From Felis catus (Eukaryota), in the NCBI RefSeq assembly GCF_018350175.1, contig NC_058368.1, positions 87,732,001 to 87,796,000 on the forward strand: a DNA stretch of 64,000 bases, written 5' to 3'. The position numbers were made by a program, and so were the translations under genes. Positions within the stretch are counted from its first letter, which is position 1. Each line of letters opens with the position of its first letter. This document shows, piece after piece, positions 1 to 53,955 of this stretch. The notes beneath the pieces were generated by a model that was given only the letters and a program-made list of their open reading frames with translations, was not told the DNA's origin and did no database searches.

Positions 1-272
1 AACAATTACTGAAATGCTTATATTTATATATATGAATAAAATGGACTATTTATAAATATTTTGTAGCTATATAAATATAAGTAAATAAGAAATGGTATAA
101 AATGTGTATATTTCTATAAACATATAAATACAAATAATAATAAATAATAAATAAAAAGTCGAGGCCAAGTCGAGAAGGGGGTTCAGAGAAGCCTGACCAG
201 AGTCTGGTCCAGGAGAGAGCATTTGTCAGAGGGAGGAAGGCCCAGTGCTCCATGCAGCCAGCCCCTGACCAG

Positions 273-553
273 CCCAGTGGGCTCCTCGTGGAAGGTCATG
301 TCCACTTCCATAACCCAGTGGGCTCCTCCTAGAAGTTCGTGTCCACTTCCCGACCCAGTGGGCTCCTCCTGGAAGATCATGTCCACCTCTCCAACCCAGT
401 GGGCTCCTCCCGGAAGGTCGTGTTCATTCTCCAACCCAGTGGGCTCCTCTTGGAAGGTCGTGTCCACTTCCCAACCCAGTGGGCTCCTCCTGTAAGGTCG
501 GGTCCACCTCCCCAGCACAGTGGGTTCCTCCTGGAAGTTCGGGTCCACCTCCA
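273..553. repeat. ~40-41 bp minisatellite, ~7 copies (unit CCCAGTGGGCTCCTCCTGGAAGGTCRTGTCCACYTCYCCAA)
   Basis: Units start at about 273, 314, 354, 395, 435, 475 and 516. Confidence 0.9.
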
Positions 554-1559
554 TGTGGGATAGACGAGGCCCTGCATGTGGAAGGGTTGGATGTGAGCTC
601 TGCATACACATGCAGTTAGAGCCAAGATGTGTACCCTGCCTCCTTGTCCCACACTGCTTCCCGGGAAGACACACCTTCCCATGCCACATTTTACCTGTCA
701 ACAGGAAGCAAGGTGAGGCAGTCAGTTCCTTGGGCCACGTTTATTCTCCTACTTATGGAAAGAGTGTTTTTTAGGCTTGACACAGATTTGCATCATAAGG
801 TCAAAGCCAGGCCCAGAGCCTGGAAATGTTTGTTTCAAGGATGACCCCAGAAATGCAGCAAGGAAGGTAACACTGGGAGAGGAGGAAGACTGTTTTCCCT
901 GTAAATATGACTAACCAGAGACACAACAGGAGAAAAACAAACAGAAACTGATTAGCATGTGCATGATGCATACACGTGGGGGACTTGCAGGACTGCTTGG
1001 AACTTGGGTCTAAAAACTCACTTAAGACAGGAAAGTGGGAGTAGGTAGGGAGCTTATGGAAAAGCAAATGTCTTTTTGGAAAGATGAATGAGCCCTCAGG
1101 AAATAGACCAGAGATGTGCCCGTTTGGGACCAAGTTCATCTGGGACTGAGGCTGGCTTCCCTCCTCCAAGAAGAGATTAGGATTGTTCTTGGGGCATATT
1201 TAGGACCCCTGAAGTTTCTTTTTTTCAGGCGGCCCTGCCTTAGGCTGATGTAGGATTTCAGGATCTCAAAGGCCTTAAACTGAAAATAATTATGTCGCAG
1301 TCCCATATTTTAGGGTGGCATGCCCCATCTCATCTCCAAGAAGCATACAAGTCTTATTCCAGCTGTGATATGATTCAAAACCACACCTCCAGTAATAGAG
1401 AAAATTAGCAATTTTGTCCTGAAAGAGTGAATGTAACAGTGTCTATAAGATATACAGAGGCTTTTACTAACTGAAAGAAATCTGAAGAGGACTTTTGCTT
1501 TTACTAAAAAGGTGAAAAGCAAAGATAGGATTCAGCATTTGATTGCAGCAATCTGTCCA

Positions 1560-8354: not shown

Positions 8355-8523
8355 GGTCTTCTGGCTGTGATCGGTTTTGCAGCAGCACGGCCTGGACGAT
8401 GGTCGCGCCGCCCAGCAGCTTGTGCAGCTGGGGATCATAGCGGGTGGCCAGTTGCAGGCTGATTGGATGATGCGCGCCCTCTTGCCTGCGTGCACCTCGC
8501 AGCCCTGCAAGTCTTGGTTACAT
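8355..8523 (-). pseudogene. Decayed histone H2A relic with internal deletions
   Basis: Minus strand reads KRARII..LQLATRYDPQLHKLLGGATIVQ/AVLL versus H2[32 protein letters not shown]...AVLL; ATG at 8523, TATAAA at 8553-8558. Confidence 0.8.
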
Positions 8524-8552
8524 GCCTCCCAGTCAGTCGCCGGCCAGAGAGC

Positions 8553-8706
8553 TTTATATTCCGGGAGCGCCGCCACCACTGGATGCTGTATTCATCAATG
8601 GGGTGTGGGGACTTGCGTCCCTGGATTCTCATTGGCTGCTGTGCGACGCCATGTCCTGCGCTTTGTCCAATCAGACGAGATCTGGAAAGTCGCTTCATTT
8701 GCATAC
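8553..8706. promoter_or_regulatory. Relic H2A/H2B-type bidirectional histone promoter
   Basis: TATA (-) 8553-8558, CCAAT boxes at 8631 and 8667, octamer ATTTGCAT 8697-8704; GTCCAATCAGA-N16-GCTTCATTTG spacing identical to 47638-47674. Confidence 0.7.
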
Positions 8707-8937
8707 AGCCCGGGAGTGCGGTCCTAGCTGAGCTCCTAGCTGGGCTAAAGCGCTCTGAAGGCGCGTGCTTTGGAGACGCCTGAGGCTCTCCGGCCTCCCG
8801 GTCGCCCCTGCGGGCGTGTCTGGCATAGGAATGGGCCTTTTGGCTCGGGCACACTCCTCAGGCCCCCGTTCACGCTCCGGTTTCCTCCGAAGTTGCTGAC
8901 CCCGGCTGGCAGGCGGGGTGCGCGGTGACCCCGCAAG

Positions 8938-10934: not shown

Positions 10935-11122
10935 TTTTAATATCTTATATTTGAGAGACTGAGTGCAAGCAGGGGAAGGGCAGAGAGACAGAGGCAGAAT
11001 CTGAAGTAGGCTCCAGGCTCCAAGCTGTCAGCACAGAGCCCAATGCTGTGCTCGAACTCCTGAGCAGTGAGACCATGACCTGAGCCATTGTTGGAATGGA
11101 CTGAGCCACCCAAGTGCCCCAA
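10935..11122 (-). mobile_element. CAN-SINE
   Basis: Reverse-complement SINE (CTGAGCCACCCAAGTGCCCC). Confidence 0.85.
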
Positions 11123-11170: not shown

Positions 11171-11420
11171 TTAGACAGTCCAAGTTCCCCGGTGTCTAGT
11201 TCCTGTGTCCCCAGGGCTGCGGCCTACTCCGTGGCCTCCATCCCCCATTTGACTTCCCACCTCCCCCTTGTGGGGCACTGGAGTCTGCCCTGCCCACCCC
11301 TTCCCCCATGACAACAGAGCCTTGAATGCTGGCATGTGCATCACCCTGTGGGCCTGGGGAGGACATCTTTGCAATAGGACATTTGTAAGCAGGGTTGCTG
11401 GGTCCAGGGTCACTACACCC
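11171..11420 (-). pseudogene. Decayed PRY-SPRY (B30.2) exon relic, same strand as RNF187
   Basis: VTLDPAT...HKGEV...MGD...GVGR...GTWTV versus B30.2 consensus VTLDPdTA...HYWEV.VGD...GVCR...GFW; AG acceptor just upstream. Confidence 0.65.
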
Positions 11421-12846
11421 TAAATGCCAGGACATCTGGCAGCTTGAACTCCAGAACGCAGCAGGAGAGCAGGGGCTTGGGGTAAGGGTGCAGGGGAAGG
11501 GGGGGTTGCTGTCCACTGCCCCATCTCCATCCGGACATTGTGACTTCCAGGCACTACTAACTTTGAGCATTTCTCCCTGGGCTTCTGAGCCTTCTGGCTC
11601 CTCTTCTGCACCAGCCTTGGCTGTGGGTCTTGAACCCCATTGCTCTGGGCTCTTCCTGATCTGCAGGAGTTTCCTGCATGGTCTTAGTATGACCCACATC
11701 AGTTGTAACATGCCAGCCTGCGTTAACTCTGGCCGCGGGCCGCCCGGCTGAGCAGAACAGGCATTTTGTACAAGCCTTTGTATCTTACCTGAGGGGACAG
11801 TTCCAAGCACTGGGTGGCCCCACTGGCAGGCAAGGATTGACAGTATTCTCTTGCTGTGACCCCACCCCACCGCAGGACCCCCACCGCCCACGGTGAGAGG
11901 GTGGGTGTCAGTGCCCAGGTCTACAGAGCTCTGCCCCTTGGGAGGAGCTGCACCTGCATCCAGGACACCATCGGCAGACCAGCCTCTCCCCGGACAGCTC
12001 TGCTGGTCTTAGGCAAGCACATCCGGTCGGGGCACCCTGTGTGCACATCTCTGCAGGACCAGCTCCACCACACAGCCCCCACACTGTAACGGGGACCCAG
12101 GTCACGCCCAACCTCTCAACACTACAAACAAGGTTCCGTGACTGTCCGAGGTGCACCAGGGCCAGAAGATGCTGTCATCCAAGGCACACTGTAGTGTGGT
12201 GACACAGGGTACAGGGTAGCACCCGGCCCAGGGTGTAGTTGGCTGGGAGGCAATCTCTGAACCTAACCCCCAGGGCACCCTGCTAGGAATGTCTGTGTGC
12301 CCAGGGGCCCTGGGCCACTCCAGGTGGCCTGACCACGTGACACAGGGCAGGGTCTCTGGTCTGCGGCTGGACTTCATGGCACCTGTGTTGGGCACTTTTA
12401 CTGGACTCTGCTGCTCCCCACTTCTCCCTTCAGCTGACCTTTACCTGTCTCCTCACACTGTGATAAACGGTCACTGTGAGCACCACAGCCTTCAATGAGC
12501 TCTGGGAGCTTTTCTGGCAAATCACCAAGTCTGGGGGGCTGGGGGCGGGTCCCGGGCATGCCCCCCCCCCCCACCGACCTCCCAGCCAGCCTGCTTCTCC
12601 TGTTTATGGAGCTTACTCTCTCAGGCGGCTGTTCAAAGTGCTGGCTCACACCCCCTCAGGGCGTCCTGACCCACATCATCTGGGTTCCTTGTTTCCAGCC
12701 CTAACAGAGAACTGGGGCGCCACCTCCCCGGCCCTTCCCGGAGCCTGTCTGACCAATGGTGTGGGCCTCTCCTACCGTGCTGCTGTCCTGCACCTGGTCA
12801 ATCAGCACTCCACAGAGTGCAAAGGGGCCCCCAGTGTGTCTCTGCC

Positions 12847-12974
12847 CGCCAGACTCAACATCCCTGAAACTGGAAACAAGCAGGTCCGCCTGGGATAGAT
12901 AAGGGGGATCGCCAGACTCAACATCCCTGAAACTGGAAACAAGCAGGTCTGCCTGGGATAGATAAGGGGGATCG
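12847..12974. repeat. 63-bp tandem duplication (2 copies, 1 mismatch)
   Basis: CGCCAGACTCAACATCCCTGAAACTGG...GGGGGAT repeated. Confidence 0.95.
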
Positions 12975-14439
12975 GAGGGAAAGGCATTTGGGCCCTGCAC
13001 AAAGGAACCAGTTTCCTCAAAGTGCCCCTGGTCTTCTAGCAGACAAACCTCCACTTCGGGGCCTCTGTGCAGAGCCCTGCCTGCTCTCCTCGGGCTCCTG
13101 CCCCTGCACGGACCTGGATCACACGGAGGGGCACACACAAGGACCGCTGAGAGCCCACATGAGACCTTGCTTTGCTTGTCCTCACACGCAGGAGCTTGTG
13201 AAGATATTGTACAGTTTCTGTAAGATGTCATTTGAGCGTGGACTCGAAGGCAGGGGACTGGCCGGCCGCACAAATCTGGAGGAGCAACACTATTCCACAG
13301 GGCTGAATAGGGGCACGAGGGTGGGGGGGGGGGGGTGCCAGCAGGGAGCAGGCAGTTGGGGTGGGTCACGAGGCCCTGGAGGCCAGCGGGGCACTTGGAG
13401 AAACTACCAAGTGGGCAGTGGGCCTGGATGCAACTGCAGGCCATCCACACTAGAATGTTCCTGGCTTGCTGGACACAGGCTCCCTACAGTGCCCTCCCTA
13501 TGTCCACCCCACATCTAGAGTTGGGACGCTTCTAGCACCGTCCCTGGGTCTGAGGAGTCAGGATTATTGTTACTTGGCCATAGTCCCACGGTTTGTCCAG
13601 CACATCTCCACAGAGAAGGCAGGCAGGCAGCTGGCCAGGGTCACTCAGCGGAGGCAGAGAGCCCATCAGAGAGAAGTCCCATCTGCGGGAGCCCTCTTCC
13701 TGCAGCAGGGTGGATACAGCACGTCCCTGGAGACCCTCTGCGCAGGGGAGGAGGCAGATGGGAGGAGGGATGCCAGGCAAACCGGCTGGAGCAAGCCCTC
13801 TCTACTGGGCTCCATGAACACCAGCCACACCCAAACTCTCAGAAACAGAGGGGCAATAATTGCTGAGGCCTCATCTGGGAATGTGCGAATGCACCTACAG
13901 GCCTTAAGTCTGCACCATCTGGGAAGACTCCCAGCCTCAGCCATCCTTAATGGCCCCGTGTCAACATTCTAGGACCCCACATCCCCATCTCTGTGCTGCG
14001 GCACTATTGGCTGCCCTAATGTACATGATGATGCTACCACTAAGTCACAAGTCTGCCACATTCGTCTGTTGGAGAAAACCTGAAGCAAAGGGAGCCAGAG
14101 GCAGAGCGAGAGGGAACATGGCGTCCACGTGCAGGCCTGGGGGTGACCTGCACCCACACTGGTCCTCTGCCCTGGGACACATGCTGTAGGGAGCTCTAGC
14201 CACAGTCGACCTGCCTGCCCGTCCTCCCCTCCAGGTGCCGTGAGCCTTCTCTTCCCTGCACCCTAACTGGATGCCCCACACATGTGCAGGGGTCTGGTCT
14301 GCATGTCCAACAGAGCAGCCCCATCGTGGGTGGAATTTAAATGGGGTGGGTGCCAGGCCTGCACAATCTGGGCTGCCTGGCAACCGCCGTGGGCCATGGA
14401 GACCCCAGGCAAATGAGACTCAGTGACAGCAACAAGAAC

Positions 14440-14445: not shown

Positions 14446-14745
14446 AAGAGTCGTGATACATTGGGGTCAACAGTACCCACCAGTAGCTACAGGTCTCTAC
14501 AGTAAAACGGTTACAGCCTGGGGACCACGAATACCCACAGGGAAAGGGAACAGGGACACTGCTAGGGGCAGTCTTGGCCCACCCAAGGTGGCCACCCGTG
14601 GTATGCGTCCTGCGTGTGCACCTCGGTGCAGACCCTCATGGGTGAAGGTCATTGCGGGTCCAGGAGGAGGTGATGAAGGAGCTGCTGGGCGACAGGCCAG
14701 GGTGGATGGAGCTGTTACCGTCTGGAGCCAGCAGAGGGCAGGACA

Positions 14746-14748
14746 TCA
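14746..14748 (-). CDS. RNF187: RNF187 exon 4 coding part (TGA stop only)
   Basis: Polypyrimidine tract CTTCCTCTCCCTCCACACCCTCCTGCAG then TGA. Confidence 0.75.
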   Translation of the reverse strand, partial: 

Positions 14749-17211
14749 CTGCAGGAGGGTGTGGAGGGAGAGGAAGCTGCTGTGAGAACACCCAGGCCAA
14801 AGGCGCCCCAGCCACCTGCTGATGCCTGCCCCCAACCCCGCAGGGCCTTGGCACCCTCCTCTGGGGCCCGGACACAACAGGGGGCCCACCTGAAGCAGCA
14901 TGCTGAGCCCCAGGTTGCGGTGCCTCCTCTCCAGCTCCGAGACAGCCTGCAGTAGTGACCCAAAGCGCTCGGCCGGGTCTGTGTCCTCGTCCTCTGCGGA
15001 CCCCTCCTCTTTATCCGCCTCCTGCAGGAAACGCTCCTCCTCCTCGGCAAAGAAGGCCCGAAGCTTCTTGTAGTCAGTCAGGGCCTTCTTCCTGCGGTCC
15101 ATCACGTGTCCCTGCAGGGCAGGCAGGTGGACGGCACGGAGGGACACCTGTGTCCCAGGGCTAACCCTGGGGCCTCCCGCCTCACCTCTGCCCACCTGGG
15201 GAGAAGGGTTGGCTGCACAGCCAGCATCACTCCGCTGCATCCCTGCCAAATGGGGTCAGGGCTCACACCCACACCCTCTCCCTGGGCAGACCCCAGGCTG
15301 GAGGACACTTGCCTTCCAAACGGCAGCAGCAGACTCAGCCTGGCCATGCAGGTCCCGGGCGTCATTCAGGTCTTTCCGCATGATCTCCACAGAACCCTTG
15401 TTCTCCTGGAAAGACACATGGTTACTGATGGGTGCAGTCAGAGGTCCAGGGTCCCCCTCACCTGGTTCGGGGGCAGACTCAGCAAAAACGGACTGCAGGG
15501 ACCAGAGGGGGGTCTCAGCAACCCCTCTAAGCTCTCCCCAGAAAGAACTCTGATAGGAAAGGGTCTGCCAAGAATATAACCAGGTAACCAGACATAAGGC
15601 CACTCCTTGGGGGGGGGGGGGCAGGGGGCCCAGTGTTACCGTCACCAATGGGAGGGATGGAGCACGGCTTTTCAAGAGTGCACTGACCTAGACCTAGGGT
15701 TCCCCAGCAGAAGCAGAGCCCAGCTCCTGTCCACCTGCTAGCAGCAGTGCAGCCCCTAGCCACCACCCACCAGTGCCACCGCCCGGGGCTCACAGGAACC
15801 CTAGGACCCACCCCTGATAATTTGCTGCCATGCTCTCTCCTCCCTCCTCTCAGGTAGGCATGGACCACCATGTCTCAGCACCAAGAAAGGATCCGTTTTT
15901 ACTCTCGGAAATAGCACTGCCCCCAGCTCTTCGGGGGGGGAGGGGAGGTGGCCCCTGGGCCCACCTGCACCCAGACTCTCCAATGGCAGGTTTCTCCCCA
16001 GGGTCAGGTGCCCCACGCAATGGTCCACGGCACAGCCAAGGTTTCAGAACCAAGTGGGTGGGGGTCATGGAGCGCCAGTATGAAAATGGTCCAGGTAAAG
16101 GCGGGGGGTGGGGCCGCACTGGACCACAGCAGGTGACAGCCCAGGCCGACTGCCTGGTCCACTAGACAGAACCTCGGGGGGAGCAGGGGGCACTGCCACA
16201 GGGTGACGTCACGCCTGGAGGAGGGAAATGAGGTGCGGTAGGTGAAATACGGGGGTGGGGTCAGCAGATGGTCACTGTCTTCAGTACGGTGCAGGGAGGG
16301 GCGGAACTGTCTGAATCCTAGCTGGGAGAGGAGTGTCGGAGGTGCAGAAAAAAGAATACGGTCCAGGGATGGGGCGGGCACAGCCGCCTTACAGGGCTGG
16401 GGGATAAGGGGAGAAGGCACCGTCCAGGAGAGAAGGAAGAGGGGAGAGGGCACCGTCCGGCAAATGAGGGGTAACCGAGCACACTTCAGAATAAGGGATC
16501 CGGATTGGAAACAGGACAGGGTACCATCAGAGGGTTGGGGACCGGGGATGACTGGAGGACTGGGCCCCGCTCGGAGGATGGAGACTGCACTGTCCAAGGC
16601 CAGAAACCACGGATGGGGAACAGGACACCAAGCGGGGGGGGGGGGGGGGGAATTCGACACCGGCCGAGGTGTGGGGGCGGGGAGCCGGGGTTCAGGCTGG
16701 GAAACAGAACACCCGCTGAGGGTGTAGGACGGACGGCTGGGGAGGGGAAGTCAGAGCAGCCCGGGGAGTGGGGGGGGGGGGGGTACGCAGGCCGGGGACG
16801 GGCCGCGCACAGGCCGCCGCCCGCGCGCACCTTGCCGCGCAGCGCCTTCCTCCAGCGCGGCTCCCACTCTGGCGGCTCGGGCCCCGCCGCCATGCGGCAG
16901 GCGGCGCACAGCGGGCCCCCGTCGGCACGGCACAGCAGCTGCAGCGCCGCTTCGGAGGCCGGGCCGTCGCGCGCGGGCGCAGCGGCCGCCTCCTCGAGCG
17001 CCAGCAGCCGGCGGCTGAGCGGCGGGCGGCCGGGCTCCACGGCGCGCTGCCAGCAGTCGTCGGCGCACTCGGGGCACGGGAAGGGCCCGTCCTCCTCGGC
17101 CCAGAAGCGCACCACGCACGCCCGGCAGAAGCGGTGGCCGCAATCGGCGCGCACCGGCTCTCGCGGCGCGCGCTGGCACAGGGCGCAGGCGGCCTCGGCG
17201 GGCAGCGCCAG
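14746..17211 (-). CDS. RNF187: E3 ubiquitin ligase RNF187 (RACO-1), 232 aa; join(17211..16831,15405..15313,15111..14890,14748..14746)
   Basis: [28 protein letters not shown]...CPEC and C-terminus [11 protein letters not shown] recognised as RNF187; all exons phase 0 with valid splice sites. Confidence 0.95.
14890..15111 (-). CDS. RNF187: RNF187 exon 3 (74 codons, GHVMDRRKK...SMLLQ)
   Basis: CAG acceptor at 15112-15114, GTGGGC donor at 14889. Confidence 0.93.
15313..15405 (-). CDS. RNF187: RNF187 exon 2 (31 codons, ENKGSVEIM...AAAVWK)
   Basis: TTTCCAG acceptor; AAG/GCAAGT GC donor. Confidence 0.9.
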
Positions 17212-18200
17212 GGCGGCGGCGGCGGAGGCCCTCCGGAAGGGCGCGGGCGGAGGGACGGTGACCAGGGAGTGCGGGCGAGGCCGGCCCGAGACGCGGCGGA
17301 GACCGGGGACGGGGATGGAGAACACGGCCGGAGAGCCTAGGACGTGGACCAGGATGGCGACTGGGACGCGCGGGGCGGGGACGGCGGGGCGCCCCACGCA
17401 GGGTCCTGGCAGCGGTGCGCTCCACGCAGGGTCCTGGCAGAGGTGTCCTTCACTCCTTGGGATCCTGGCAACCGTGCTCCCGTTACAAAGTCCTGGCAGG
17501 GGTGCGCGCTCCTCCTTCGGAGTCCCGGCAGCAACGCTCTCCCCGGGAAGGTCCAGGCAGCGGTGCGCGCGTCCCCTCCCGGGTCCTGGCAGCGATGTAC
17601 TCCACCCCTCTCAGGTCCTGGCAGCGGTGCGCCTCACTCTCCCGTCCGTCGGCCGGCCCACGTCCTCGCACCCTGAAGTCTTACCAGGATGGTCATTTCC
17701 CTTTAAATTACTCGTAAACAATAGGGAGAGGTGTCATATTAGTATATGAAAACTAATTTCTAAATTTTTTTTGTAAGCTGCCAGGACCTGGGCGGCGAGC
17801 ACCCCGCCCCTGCGCTGTCGGGGCGGGGCTGGAAAAGGCCTTGGTGGGGCCCTCCCCTCCTGCAACGGCTGGGTACGCGCGGTCCTGCGTGGGCCTTTTC
17901 CTCGTGCAACTGCCACGCGCGGACCCTGCCGCATGCAACCGCCCTGCACGCGCCTTGTAGGGTGGGTCTTTCCCCCGTGCAGCCGCTGGGCATGCGCCGT
18001 CCCGCGTGGGCCCTTTCCTCGTGCAACCGCCACGCGCGGACCTACCCCCATGCAATCCCTCTGCACGCCCGGCCCCGCGTGGGCCCTTCCCCCGTGAAAG
18101 AGCTGGGCACACGCCGCCCCGTGTGGGCCCTTTCCCTGTGCAGCCATGCAGCCGCTGGGCATGCACCGCTCCACGTGAACCCTCCCGCAGAGCCTGTGGT
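16650..18200. promoter_or_regulatory. CpG island / promoter of RNF187, containing GC-rich tandem repeats
   Basis: Very high GC and CpG density; repeats GGTCCTGGCAGCGGTGCGC (17398-17632) and GTGGGCCCTTTCCCCGTGCA (17860-18190). Confidence 0.8.
16831..17211 (-). CDS. RNF187: RNF187 exon 1 (127 codons; CTG start; RING plus degenerate B-box)
   Basis: GCCGCCGCC-CTG-G Kozak context; donor AAG/GTGCGC at 16830. Confidence 0.9.
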
Positions 18201-18439
18201 CCATTCTCCTGGGCATCCCGTGGCCTGGAGGAATCCAGAGCCGGGAGTTTTCACAGATTCAGACCAAAGAGATCCCAGATGACCCAGAGCTACAGGCCCC
18301 AGGACATTTGTTAGAATTTCTTTAGGACTGGAGGGGGGGGGGTCGGGAGGAGGAGCAATCTGTTTTGTTGTTGTATTAAAAACAACCAAGCGTGCAGTTT
18401 AAAAAAAAAAAAAAGTTACTGTAATTTACCACTACATAA

Positions 18440-47991: not shown

Positions 47992-48369
47992 AAGCCGGAT
48001 CCTTCCCACTCCGCCCAAGAAGGGCTCCAAGAGGGCCGTCACCAAAGCGCAGAAGAAAGAGCAGCCGCAAGGAGAGCTACTCCATCTACGTGTACAAGGT
48101 GCTGAAGCAGGTGCACCCCGACACCAGCATCTCGTCTAAGATCATGGGCATCATGAACTCGTTTGTCAACGACATCTTCGAGCACATCGCCAGCGAGGCC
48201 CCTGCCTCGACCATCACGTCCTGCGAGGTGCAGACGGCCGTGCGCCTGCTGCTGCCGGGCGAACTGGCCAAGCACGCTGTGTCTGAGGGCACCAAGGCCG
48301 TCACCAAGTACACCAGCTCCAAGTGAGGCGCGCCGGGCGCCCTGGAACCCAAAGGCTATTTTCAGAGCC
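47992..48369 (+). pseudogene. H2BC27P: Histone H2B pseudogene (probable H2BU2P/HIST3H2BA orthologue)
   Basis: Start ATG replaced by AAG (AAG CCG GAT CCT TCC), frameshifting deletions in the N-tail, loss of most of SRLAHYNKR, mutated stem-loop GGCTATTTTCAGAGCC 48354-48369. Confidence 0.88.
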
Positions 48370-48889
48370 ACCTCTGTGCTCAGAAAGGAGACTGCCAGCC
48401 GCTCTGGTTGTGATGTACTGCTCCGGCAGGGTTCTGGGGGGCGCTGCAATTTGCCACGGAAAGCGAGACTGGACTTCAAAGGCGCAGACCCTGCAAAGGC
48501 GCGTTGAGTCAGCATCTACCCAGCCAGCAGCCAGAGAGGGCACGGCCTTAGCTTTAGGCAGAGACCCGGTCACCTCCAGGAAGGCTTCAGGCCAACCTCC
48601 CTACTAGCACCCCCGTGTCTCTTAATGGATTAGGTCTGCGTGCGCTGGACGGATGTGGGGTTGGATGAGGCCCTGGGTGTTGGGCTCAGTCTTGGCGGTG
48701 ACGCTTGGGCTGATCCTTCCCTCCTTTACCTCTTGTCAAATACACGAAAGCAGTGTTCAGTTTAAGCAGCTTTTTGTGGGCACCACAGTTCCTGTTTGAA
48801 AAATCAGAACAGCGGGTGCACAGGTAATGGCCTCCATCATCATACTCTGCTAAAATCATTCATATTAGGAGATCAGTTTATGTGGGGTT

Positions 48890-52869: not shown

Positions 52870-53955
<1,086 letters not shown>

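What the first reader, a model, noticed from the sequence alone, without database searches (positions are those of the whole stretch)
11171..11420. Fossil PRY-SPRY (B30.2) exon downstream of RNF187
Seen: after an AG near 11421, the minus strand reads VTLDPAT, then AF(K)..VVMGEG (frameshifted), HKGEV, MGD, GVGR and GTWTV in order. Known: the last exon of TRIM11/17/58-type genes begins DVTLDP and contains RF...CVLG.E, HYWEVEVGD, GVCR and GFW. RNF187 has TRIM-like RING, B-box and coiled-coil exons but no B30.2. W>G and C>G are single-base changes. Inference: this is the lost terminal exon of RNF187, which would make it a truncated TRIM paralogue. The relic ends near a SINE at 10935-11122.
Basis: partly seen in the sequence, partly recalled or inferred. 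Interest (0 to 1): 0.75.

Follow-up and report, generated by a model that had tools for sequence, protein, structure and literature searches.

The report
RNF187: truncated TRIM, unproven fossil exon
The mammalian gene RNF187 is a shortened relative of the neighbouring TRIM11 and TRIM17 ubiquitin-ligase genes, and faint traces of its lost end may survive downstream, but the stretch flagged here is too decayed to be told from chance.

Summary
The motifs are present on the minus strand, 3.3 kb below the RNF187 stop. VTLDP occurs once in the window (0.11 expected). As a B30.2 exon the stretch is not significant: no Pfam or PDB hit, rank 8 or worse in all 28 window-wide frameshift-aware scans, best tblastn E 0.28. 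It ranks first only with a sharpened TRIM17 profile anchored at the exon start (1 of 16 settings). The wider inference holds on separate evidence: RNF187 aligns exon by exon with TRIM11, groups with TRIM11/TRIM17 (SH-aLRT 98-99) and stops exactly at the end of coiled-coil exon 3. I found a better-scoring candidate fossil of the linker exon at 12382-12279 (10 of 858 shuffles). The two candidates together give a Bayes factor near 3 (44 of 683 shuffles). Verdict: RNF187 as a truncated TRIM paralogue about 95%; this stretch as its fossil B30.2 exon about 30%. The truncation left a C-terminal LLQ, which papers show TRIM7's B30.2 binds.

The parts
16831..17211 (-). RNF187 exon 1: CTG start, RING, degenerate B-box2; 381 nt, phase 0
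   Evidence: CUG start of human RNF187 reported in PMC8287933 (one passage)
15313..15405 (-). RNF187 exon 2 (93 nt, GC donor), coiled coil; best match is the TRIM11 exon-2 segment
   Evidence: score 58 against 35 for the next of 120 proteins
14890..15111 (-). RNF187 exon 3 (222 nt), coiled coil, ends LGLSMLLQ
   Evidence: best matches are the three TRIM11 models (90, 90, 82; a caecilian TRIM ties at 82)
14719..14748 (-). Start of terminal exon 4: TGA is the first codon; one base in, it reads GAT GTC (D-V) like TRIM exon 4, with a GT 29 nt on (possible fossil exon 4, not tested statistically)
   Evidence: TRIM exon 4 begins DV/DI in P0237, P0244, P0147, P0242
12279..12384 (-). Candidate fossil linker exon (exon 5): AG at 12384-12383, then CHEVQPQ / PETLP ... 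RAPGHTDIPSR against TRIM11 VQDVKLQPPEVVP ... CRVPG; one frameshift
   Evidence: rank 1 of 9500 AG sites (TRIM11+17 profile), rank 2-3 (TRIM11 alone); 10 of 858 shuffles; 0 of 38 real tiles; not found with a broad linker profile
11174..11421 (-). The finding: candidate fossil first half of the B30.2 exon (exon 6), AG then VTLDP; unproven
   Evidence: for; against or neutral
11730..12250 (-). Competing, equally unproven B30.2-like reading directly below the linker candidate (*EVG, W..CRD, W.QVQL)
   Evidence: TRIM17 profile 29.6 bits, 2 of 60 shuffles, in 1 of 8 shuffle-tested settings
10935..11122 (-). SINE (carnivore CAN-SINE type, name recalled), about 50 nt after the end of the candidate

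Best explanation
RNF187 arose by duplication from the TRIM11/TRIM17 lineage in the same cluster (shown by homology and tree). It diverged fast, lost half of its B-box zinc ligands and ended up with a stop as the first codon of exon 4, so the protein is RING plus coiled coil ending in LLQ (shown). Exons 4-6 (linker and B30.2) then stopped coding and decayed in place for over 100 million years (inferred). What is left is at the limit of detection: a linker-exon candidate at 12382 is probably real (about 55%), and the VTLDP stretch at 11413 may be the start of the B30.2 exon (about 30%) but cannot be told from chance with the references available. The flagged DNA has no coding function today (inferred). 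The confidence given is for this whole reading: truncated TRIM, lost exons decayed in place, relic identity undecided.
For: RNF187 aligns with TRIM11 from the RING to LLQ, where TRIM11 continues with DIRDTLRR. Exons 2 and 3 match TRIM11 best among 120 proteins. Trees place RNF187 with TRIM11 and TRIM17 (SH-aLRT 98 with 46 rows, 99 with 20 rows; quick searches), on a stem of 2.0-2.4 changes per column. 0 of 120 listed RNF187 homologues carry PRY/SPRY; 77 of the 98 with the motif end at LLQ, including elephant, manatee and dugong. The HIST3 cluster is flanked by TRIM11, TRIM17 and RNF187 (PMC13396413, passages). The two candidates lie in the expected order and strand: joint Bayes factor 2.9, 44 of 683 shuffles, 0 of 42 real tiles.
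Against: The B30.2 candidate alone is not significant (310 to 850 of 858 shuffles; 158 of 683). With linker and B30.2 joined into one profile the locus ranks 6 to 52 in 9 settings. Simulated half-domain relics score at or below the observed value in only 0-3 of 25 runs at d<=0.4 with the broad profile. An H2A relic 3 kb away is detected easily by the same method (45.7 bits, background 26). The linker candidate has no pyrimidine tract and directly follows an AGTAAA at 12402. Tree sampling lacks TRIM58, TRIM27, TRIM7 and mammalian TRIM39, and RNF187 has a long branch and odd composition.
Confidence: 0.7

Rival explanations
1. One reading: 11421-11174 is the first half of RNF187's own lost B30.2 exon, TRIM17/TRIM11-like, and its second half was deleted or displaced near the SINE.
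For: Exact VTLDP 6 nt after an AG, unique in 128 kb of both strands. Rank 1 of 128,000 positions with a sharpened TRIM17 profile and rank 1, 3 and 20 of 9500 AG sites. Best site of the region for three of five profiles; largest single share, 0.34, in the joint model. It lies about 850 nt below the linker candidate.
Against: Rank 1 in only 1 of 16 settings, 19.6 against 19.4 bits for the next site. Two frames compete over the same bases. No second half. Chance hits of equal or better score occur in RNF187 intron 1 and on the opposite strand.
Confidence: 0.3
2. The stretch is unrelated non-coding or old repeat DNA; VTLDP is a chance match and the rest is pattern matching. The true B30.2 exon was deleted or has decayed elsewhere, for example at 12250-11730.
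For: No library hit. Scores lie within the window background. The power test says most relics would score higher. A competing reading exists.
Against: The chance of VTLDP in the roughly 6 kb of the right strand is about 0.005 before allowing for other motifs a reader would accept. The joint model leans weakly the other way.
Confidence: 0.62
3. The stretch is a relic of another B30.2 gene, such as the neighbouring butyrophilin-like BTNL10 or a separate dead TRIM.
For: BTNL10 is a human pseudogene and an intact mouse gene (PMC11969061, passages) and lies next to RNF187 (recalled). BTN genes flank the ancestral cluster in marsupials (PMC13396413). An H2A relic shows that dead genes persist nearby.
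Against: BTN1A1 and BTN2 profiles fit worse than TRIM11/17. No Ig-exon hit at E<=0.5 with 8 BTN-type proteins. BTNL10 faces RNF187 from the other strand (recalled), and plus-strand profile scans are background. No BTNL10 sequence was in my reference set.
Confidence: 0.08

Closest known systems
TRIM11 and TRIM17 (RING-B-box2-coiled coil-PRY/SPRY; PMC2533329 Table 1, passages)
   Same: Same cluster; homologous RING, B-box region and two coiled-coil exons with the same boundaries; one group in both trees.
   Different: RNF187 keeps 4 of 8 B-box ligands, starts at CUG, has shorter exons 2 and 3 (93 and 222 nt; 96 and 231 recalled for TRIM11) and encodes no linker or B30.2.
Group 2 TRIMs without SPRY and 'incomplete' TRIM-like genes such as TRIM52 (PMC2533329, passages)
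   Same: SPRY-type TRIMs reduced to all or part of the tripartite motif.
   Different: I saw no mention of RNF187 in the passages shown (I did not search that paper for the name). RNF187 is nearly frozen across eutherians (end branches 0.02-0.04), whereas group 2 genes are described as fast-evolving.
RACO-1/RNF187 as ligand of TRIM7 PRY/SPRY (PMC9335266, PMC9394474, passages)
   Same: Same protein; its C-terminal NLGLSMLLQ binds TRIM7 B30.2 (KD 3.1 uM, PDB 7Y3C) and needs the terminal Gln.
   Different: The passages seen do not link that end to a TRIM exon-3 boundary or to loss of a B30.2.

Membership tests
TRIM class C-IV (RNF187 protein) | N-terminal C3HC4 RING | tested here: met
   PF15227 E 5e-9; best PDB hit TRIM39 RING
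TRIM class C-IV (RNF187 protein) | B-box2 with eight zinc ligands | tested here: not met
   4 of 8 ligands in the alignment; PF00643 E 0.26, below cut-off
TRIM class C-IV (RNF187 protein) | Coiled-coil exons homologous to TRIM exons 2 and 3 | tested here: met
   (by homology; no coiled-coil predictor was run)
TRIM class C-IV (RNF187 protein) | C-terminal PRY/SPRY in the protein | tested here: not met
   0 of 120 listed homologues (137 found, 17 not listed; only 205-655 aa searched)
Fossil B30.2 exon (11421-11174) | Significant match to PRY/SPRY profiles or proteins | tested here: not met
   the test has little power at decay near 0.55
Fossil B30.2 exon (11421-11174) | Begins at a splice acceptor in phase | tested here: inconclusive
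   AG lies 6 nt before the V codon; 5 expected from the TRIM11 boundary (phase recalled); weak pyrimidine tract
Fossil B30.2 exon (11421-11174) | Same strand as RNF187, below a linker exon | tested here: inconclusive
   Strand is right; the linker candidate is reached by 10 of 858 and 12 of 683 shuffles, after three linker profiles were tried
Fossil B30.2 exon (11421-11174) | Second half of SPRY follows | tested here: not met
   region 10935-10100
Fossil B30.2 exon (11421-11174) | Orthologous relic in other mammals; SPRY-bearing orthologue outside eutherians | not testable with these tools
   No RNF187 locus in viral or prokaryote-genome contigs; no genome held
Butyrophilin (BTN/BTNL) relic | IgV/IgC exons upstream on the same strand; BTN-like B30.2 | tested here: not met
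   BTNL10 itself was not in the reference set

The most novel reading that the evidence does not exclude
A single T at the start of TRIM exon 4 (T-GAT-GTC) turned the first codon into TGA. This cut an ancestral TRIM11/17-type gene at its exon-3 end and exposed LLQ-COOH, the motif that TRIM7's B30.2 binds. A TRIM thus lost its own B30.2 and became a client of another TRIM's. The three lost exons still lie in order below the gene (14747, 12382, 11419), and a polyadenylation site just before the linker exon fixed the short form.
Probability: 0.2. Interest if true: 0.55.

Novelty: new member of a known kind. Interest (0 to 1): 0.3.

Why it matters
RNF187/RACO-1 is studied as a stand-alone RING E3 in AP-1 signalling, cancer and virus restriction. 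Placing it as a eutherian TRIM11/17 offshoot cut at an exon boundary explains its anatomy, predicts a TRIM-type coiled-coil dimer (possibly mixed with TRIM11 or TRIM17; untested inference) and gives an origin for the C-terminal Gln that TRIM7 recognises. SPRY-less TRIMs are a known kind, so this is an annotation and evolution point. A proven fossil exon would date the loss and show that it happened by a stop, not a deletion. None of 8 literature searches showed a paper stating this origin. I read passages of 8 papers only, the library lacks most subscription journals, and domain databases may already group RNF187 with TRIMs (recalled, not checked).

Tried and rejected
Wrong-frame slips: the exon-1 queries (one of six), 11 and 13/25 were in an alternative GC-rich frame; their hits say nothing about the RNF187 protein, and the one index-free search was lost that way. 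A B30.2 pattern found nothing in viral or prokaryote-genome contigs; RNF187 loci were not found there either. Searches (codon model with local order-0 background; forward model with region-wide background) were miscalibrated: coding or compositional stretches scored highest and control Bayes factors reached 5000. I dropped them, and note that neither favoured the candidates. The control paralogue did not run. Other B30.2-like readings seen by eye or by scan and rejected as chance: minus 7060 and 6800-6500, minus 11602, intron 1 at 16036-15457 (0 of 100 shuffles after selection from the whole window, but no core motif, and 8 of 10 profiles reached by 8 or more of 100 shuffles), plus 11356-11631 (one fish protein pair, E 0.004 among 245 queries). 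My by-eye linker candidate at 11660-11560 did not score. C-terminal extensions of 19 RNF187 gene models from other mammals match neither linker nor B30.2. Earlier-findings look-ups were empty. No structure or complex prediction was run: a decayed relic gives no meaningful model.

Full report
Setting. The window is mammalian, probably a cat-like carnivore (SINE type recalled; felid RNF187 proteins match the RING at 100%). RNF187 lies on the minus strand: exon 1 at 17211-16831 with a CTG start, exon 2 at 15405-15313 (93 nt, GC donor), exon 3 at 15111-14890 (222 nt), and a last exon whose first codon is TGA at 14748-14746. An H2A/H2B pair lies at 52.9-54.0 kb and an H2B pseudogene at 48.0-48.4 kb, as expected for the HIST3 cluster flanked by TRIM11, TRIM17 and RNF187 (PMC13396413, passages). 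No TRIM11 or TRIM17 exon was seen in the window and no genome is held.

The observation. The VTLDP codon pattern occurs once on both strands, with 0.11 expected and 10 of 100 shuffles reaching one match. For the roughly 6 kb of the right strand that is about 0.005, before allowing for the ten or twenty other conserved B30.2 words a reader would also accept (my estimate). Pfam (3 frames), PDB and the ESM Atlas gave nothing.

References. I fetched 8 vertebrate contigs with a B30.2 pattern, 7 with full PRY and SPRY. With them I fetched 120 proteins (best 120 of 4043) holding 245 distinct domains, among them mammalian TRIM11, TRIM17, TRIM38, BTN1A1 and BTN2 from fused gene models (names partly the source's, partly my recall).

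Tests of the B30.2 candidate. In local frameshift-aware scans of the whole window the site is background: ninth on its own strand with the 7-sequence profile, twelfth or lower with 245 domains, and rank 8 or worse in all 28 codon-level settings, best with TRIM11 and TRIM17. Anchored at the exon start it ranks first of 128,000 positions in 1 of 16 settings (TRIM17, 19.6 against 19.4 bits); in the other 15, between 13 and 372 positions score as high. Among 9500 AG sites it ranks 1, 3 and 20 with TRIM17 and 16 and 41 in two of three settings of the broad profile; it is not among the region's top three with TRIM11, TRIM11+17 or BTN profiles. In block shuffles of the 6 kb its score is reached 310 to 850 times of 858. 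tblastn with 245 domains gives best E 0.28. No second half follows the SINE. Readings of similar or higher score occur at 12250-11730, in intron 1 and on the plus strand.

Power. Simulated half-domain relics scored with the 245-domain profile fall at or below the observed 15.6 bits in 0 of 25 runs at d=0.25, 0-3 of 25 at d=0.4 and 3-8 of 25 at d=0.55 (four ancestors); narrower profiles have less power. An H2A relic at 8577-8374 is found easily (45.7 bits against 26). The negative therefore counts against the candidate but does not exclude an old or already divergent exon, and RNF187's long stem makes that plausible.

A better candidate upstream. If the last exon survives, the linker exon should lie between it and exon 4. 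The TRIM11+17 linker profile has its best hit of the window there (17.3 against 17.2 bits); the TRIM11-only local scan and a broad linker profile did not single it out. It starts at an AG (12384-12383) in the expected phase (phase recalled) and reads CHEVQPQ, a frameshift, PETLP, then RAPGHTDIPSR. It ranks 1 of 9500 AG sites with TRIM11+17 and 2-3 with TRIM11; 10 of 858 shuffles and 0 of 38 real tiles reach it. It lacks a pyrimidine tract and follows an AGTAAA at 12402. A calibrated forward model (control Bayes factors 0.7-1.9) makes 12384 the top linker site and 11421 the top exon-6 site for three of five profiles. Jointly, with intron-length priors, the Bayes factor is 2.9; 44 of 683 shuffles and 0 of 42 overlapping real tiles reach it, and 11421 holds 0.34 of the exon-6 posterior. 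Given the many settings tried, this is suggestive only. I put the linker candidate at about 55% and the B30.2 candidate at about 30%.

RNF187 as a truncated TRIM. This does not depend on the relic. RNF187 aligns with TRIM11 from the RING to the last residue, [11 protein letters not shown] against RCQLPALGLLQ, after which TRIM11 continues into exon 4. Exon 2 scores 58 against the TRIM11 segment and at most 35 against anything else; exon 3's top hits are TRIM11 models; for exon 1 a turtle TRIM edges TRIM11, 196 to 193. Two quick trees group RNF187 with TRIM11 and TRIM17 (SH-aLRT 98 with 46 rows, where two long bird rows join; 99 with 20 rows without them). The careful search did not finish, sampling is thin, and the RNF187 branch is long and of odd composition. 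The B-box keeps 4 of 8 ligands. None of 120 listed homologues has PRY/SPRY; 77 of the 98 with the motif end at LLQ, afrotherians included, so the loss predates the eutherian radiation (inferred).

Mechanism. Shown: the stop is the first codon after exon 3. Inferred: exon 4 begins T-GAT-GTC, and TRIM exon 4 begins with D-V or D-I, so one added base could have made the stop; given a TGA, the next three bases fit by chance about 1 time in 16. From papers: the resulting end, NLGLSMLLQ, binds TRIM7's B30.2 through the terminal Gln (PMC9335266, PMC9394474; passages). That truncation created this ligand is my inference.

Comparison with what is known. It works like a SPRY-less group 2 TRIM (PMC2533329, passages) but fails strict membership (B-box, SPRY). 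A recent RNF187 paper describes it simply as a RING E3 (PMC13428412, passages); a bird TRIM survey does not mention it (PMC10445537, 0 occurrences in the main text). Eight searches showed no statement of this origin; supplements were not read. RNA and cross-species DNA evidence are missing.

Verdict. Observation partly confirmed; interpretation partly supported; new member of a known kind; interest 0.3.

Noticed in passing
window 8374-8577 (-), promoter about 8550-8710: H2A pseudogene relic 6 kb below RNF187 (74% over 98 nt to the window's H2A, E 2e-11), in a GC-rich island with an octamer, CCAAT boxes and a TATA box of histone type. No H2B or H3 partner scored on the other strand. It may be a remnant of the ancestral histone proto-cluster.
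   Followed up: partly
window 48012-48372 (+): H2B pseudogene, 87% to the window's H2B, with a frameshift near the start and a 7-codon deletion.
   Followed up: partly
window 52873-53952: Intact divergent H2B (-) and H2A (+) pair.
   Followed up: yes
window 15311-15312 (-): RNF187 intron 2 begins with GC rather than GT.
   Followed up: no
window 14746-15111 (-): Intron 3 has no in-frame stop, so a transcript retaining it would read on to the same TGA and lose the LLQ end (ORF 14746-15255).
   Followed up: no
window 12402 and 11148 (-): AGTAAA just before the linker-exon candidate, and the only AATAAA between exon 4 and the SINE just after the B30.2 candidate; which one ends the mRNA is unknown.
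   Followed up: partly
window 12860-12980: Near-perfect tandem duplication of about 57 nt in the RNF187 3' region (seen).
   Followed up: no
window 17170-17211 (-): The RNF187 start lacks three codons (AGP) present in squirrel RNF187 P0012; the same indel separates P0001 and P0002.
   Followed up: no
window 150-700 and 17750-18260: Degenerate GC-rich tandem repeats, one at the window start and one upstream of RNF187.
   Followed up: no
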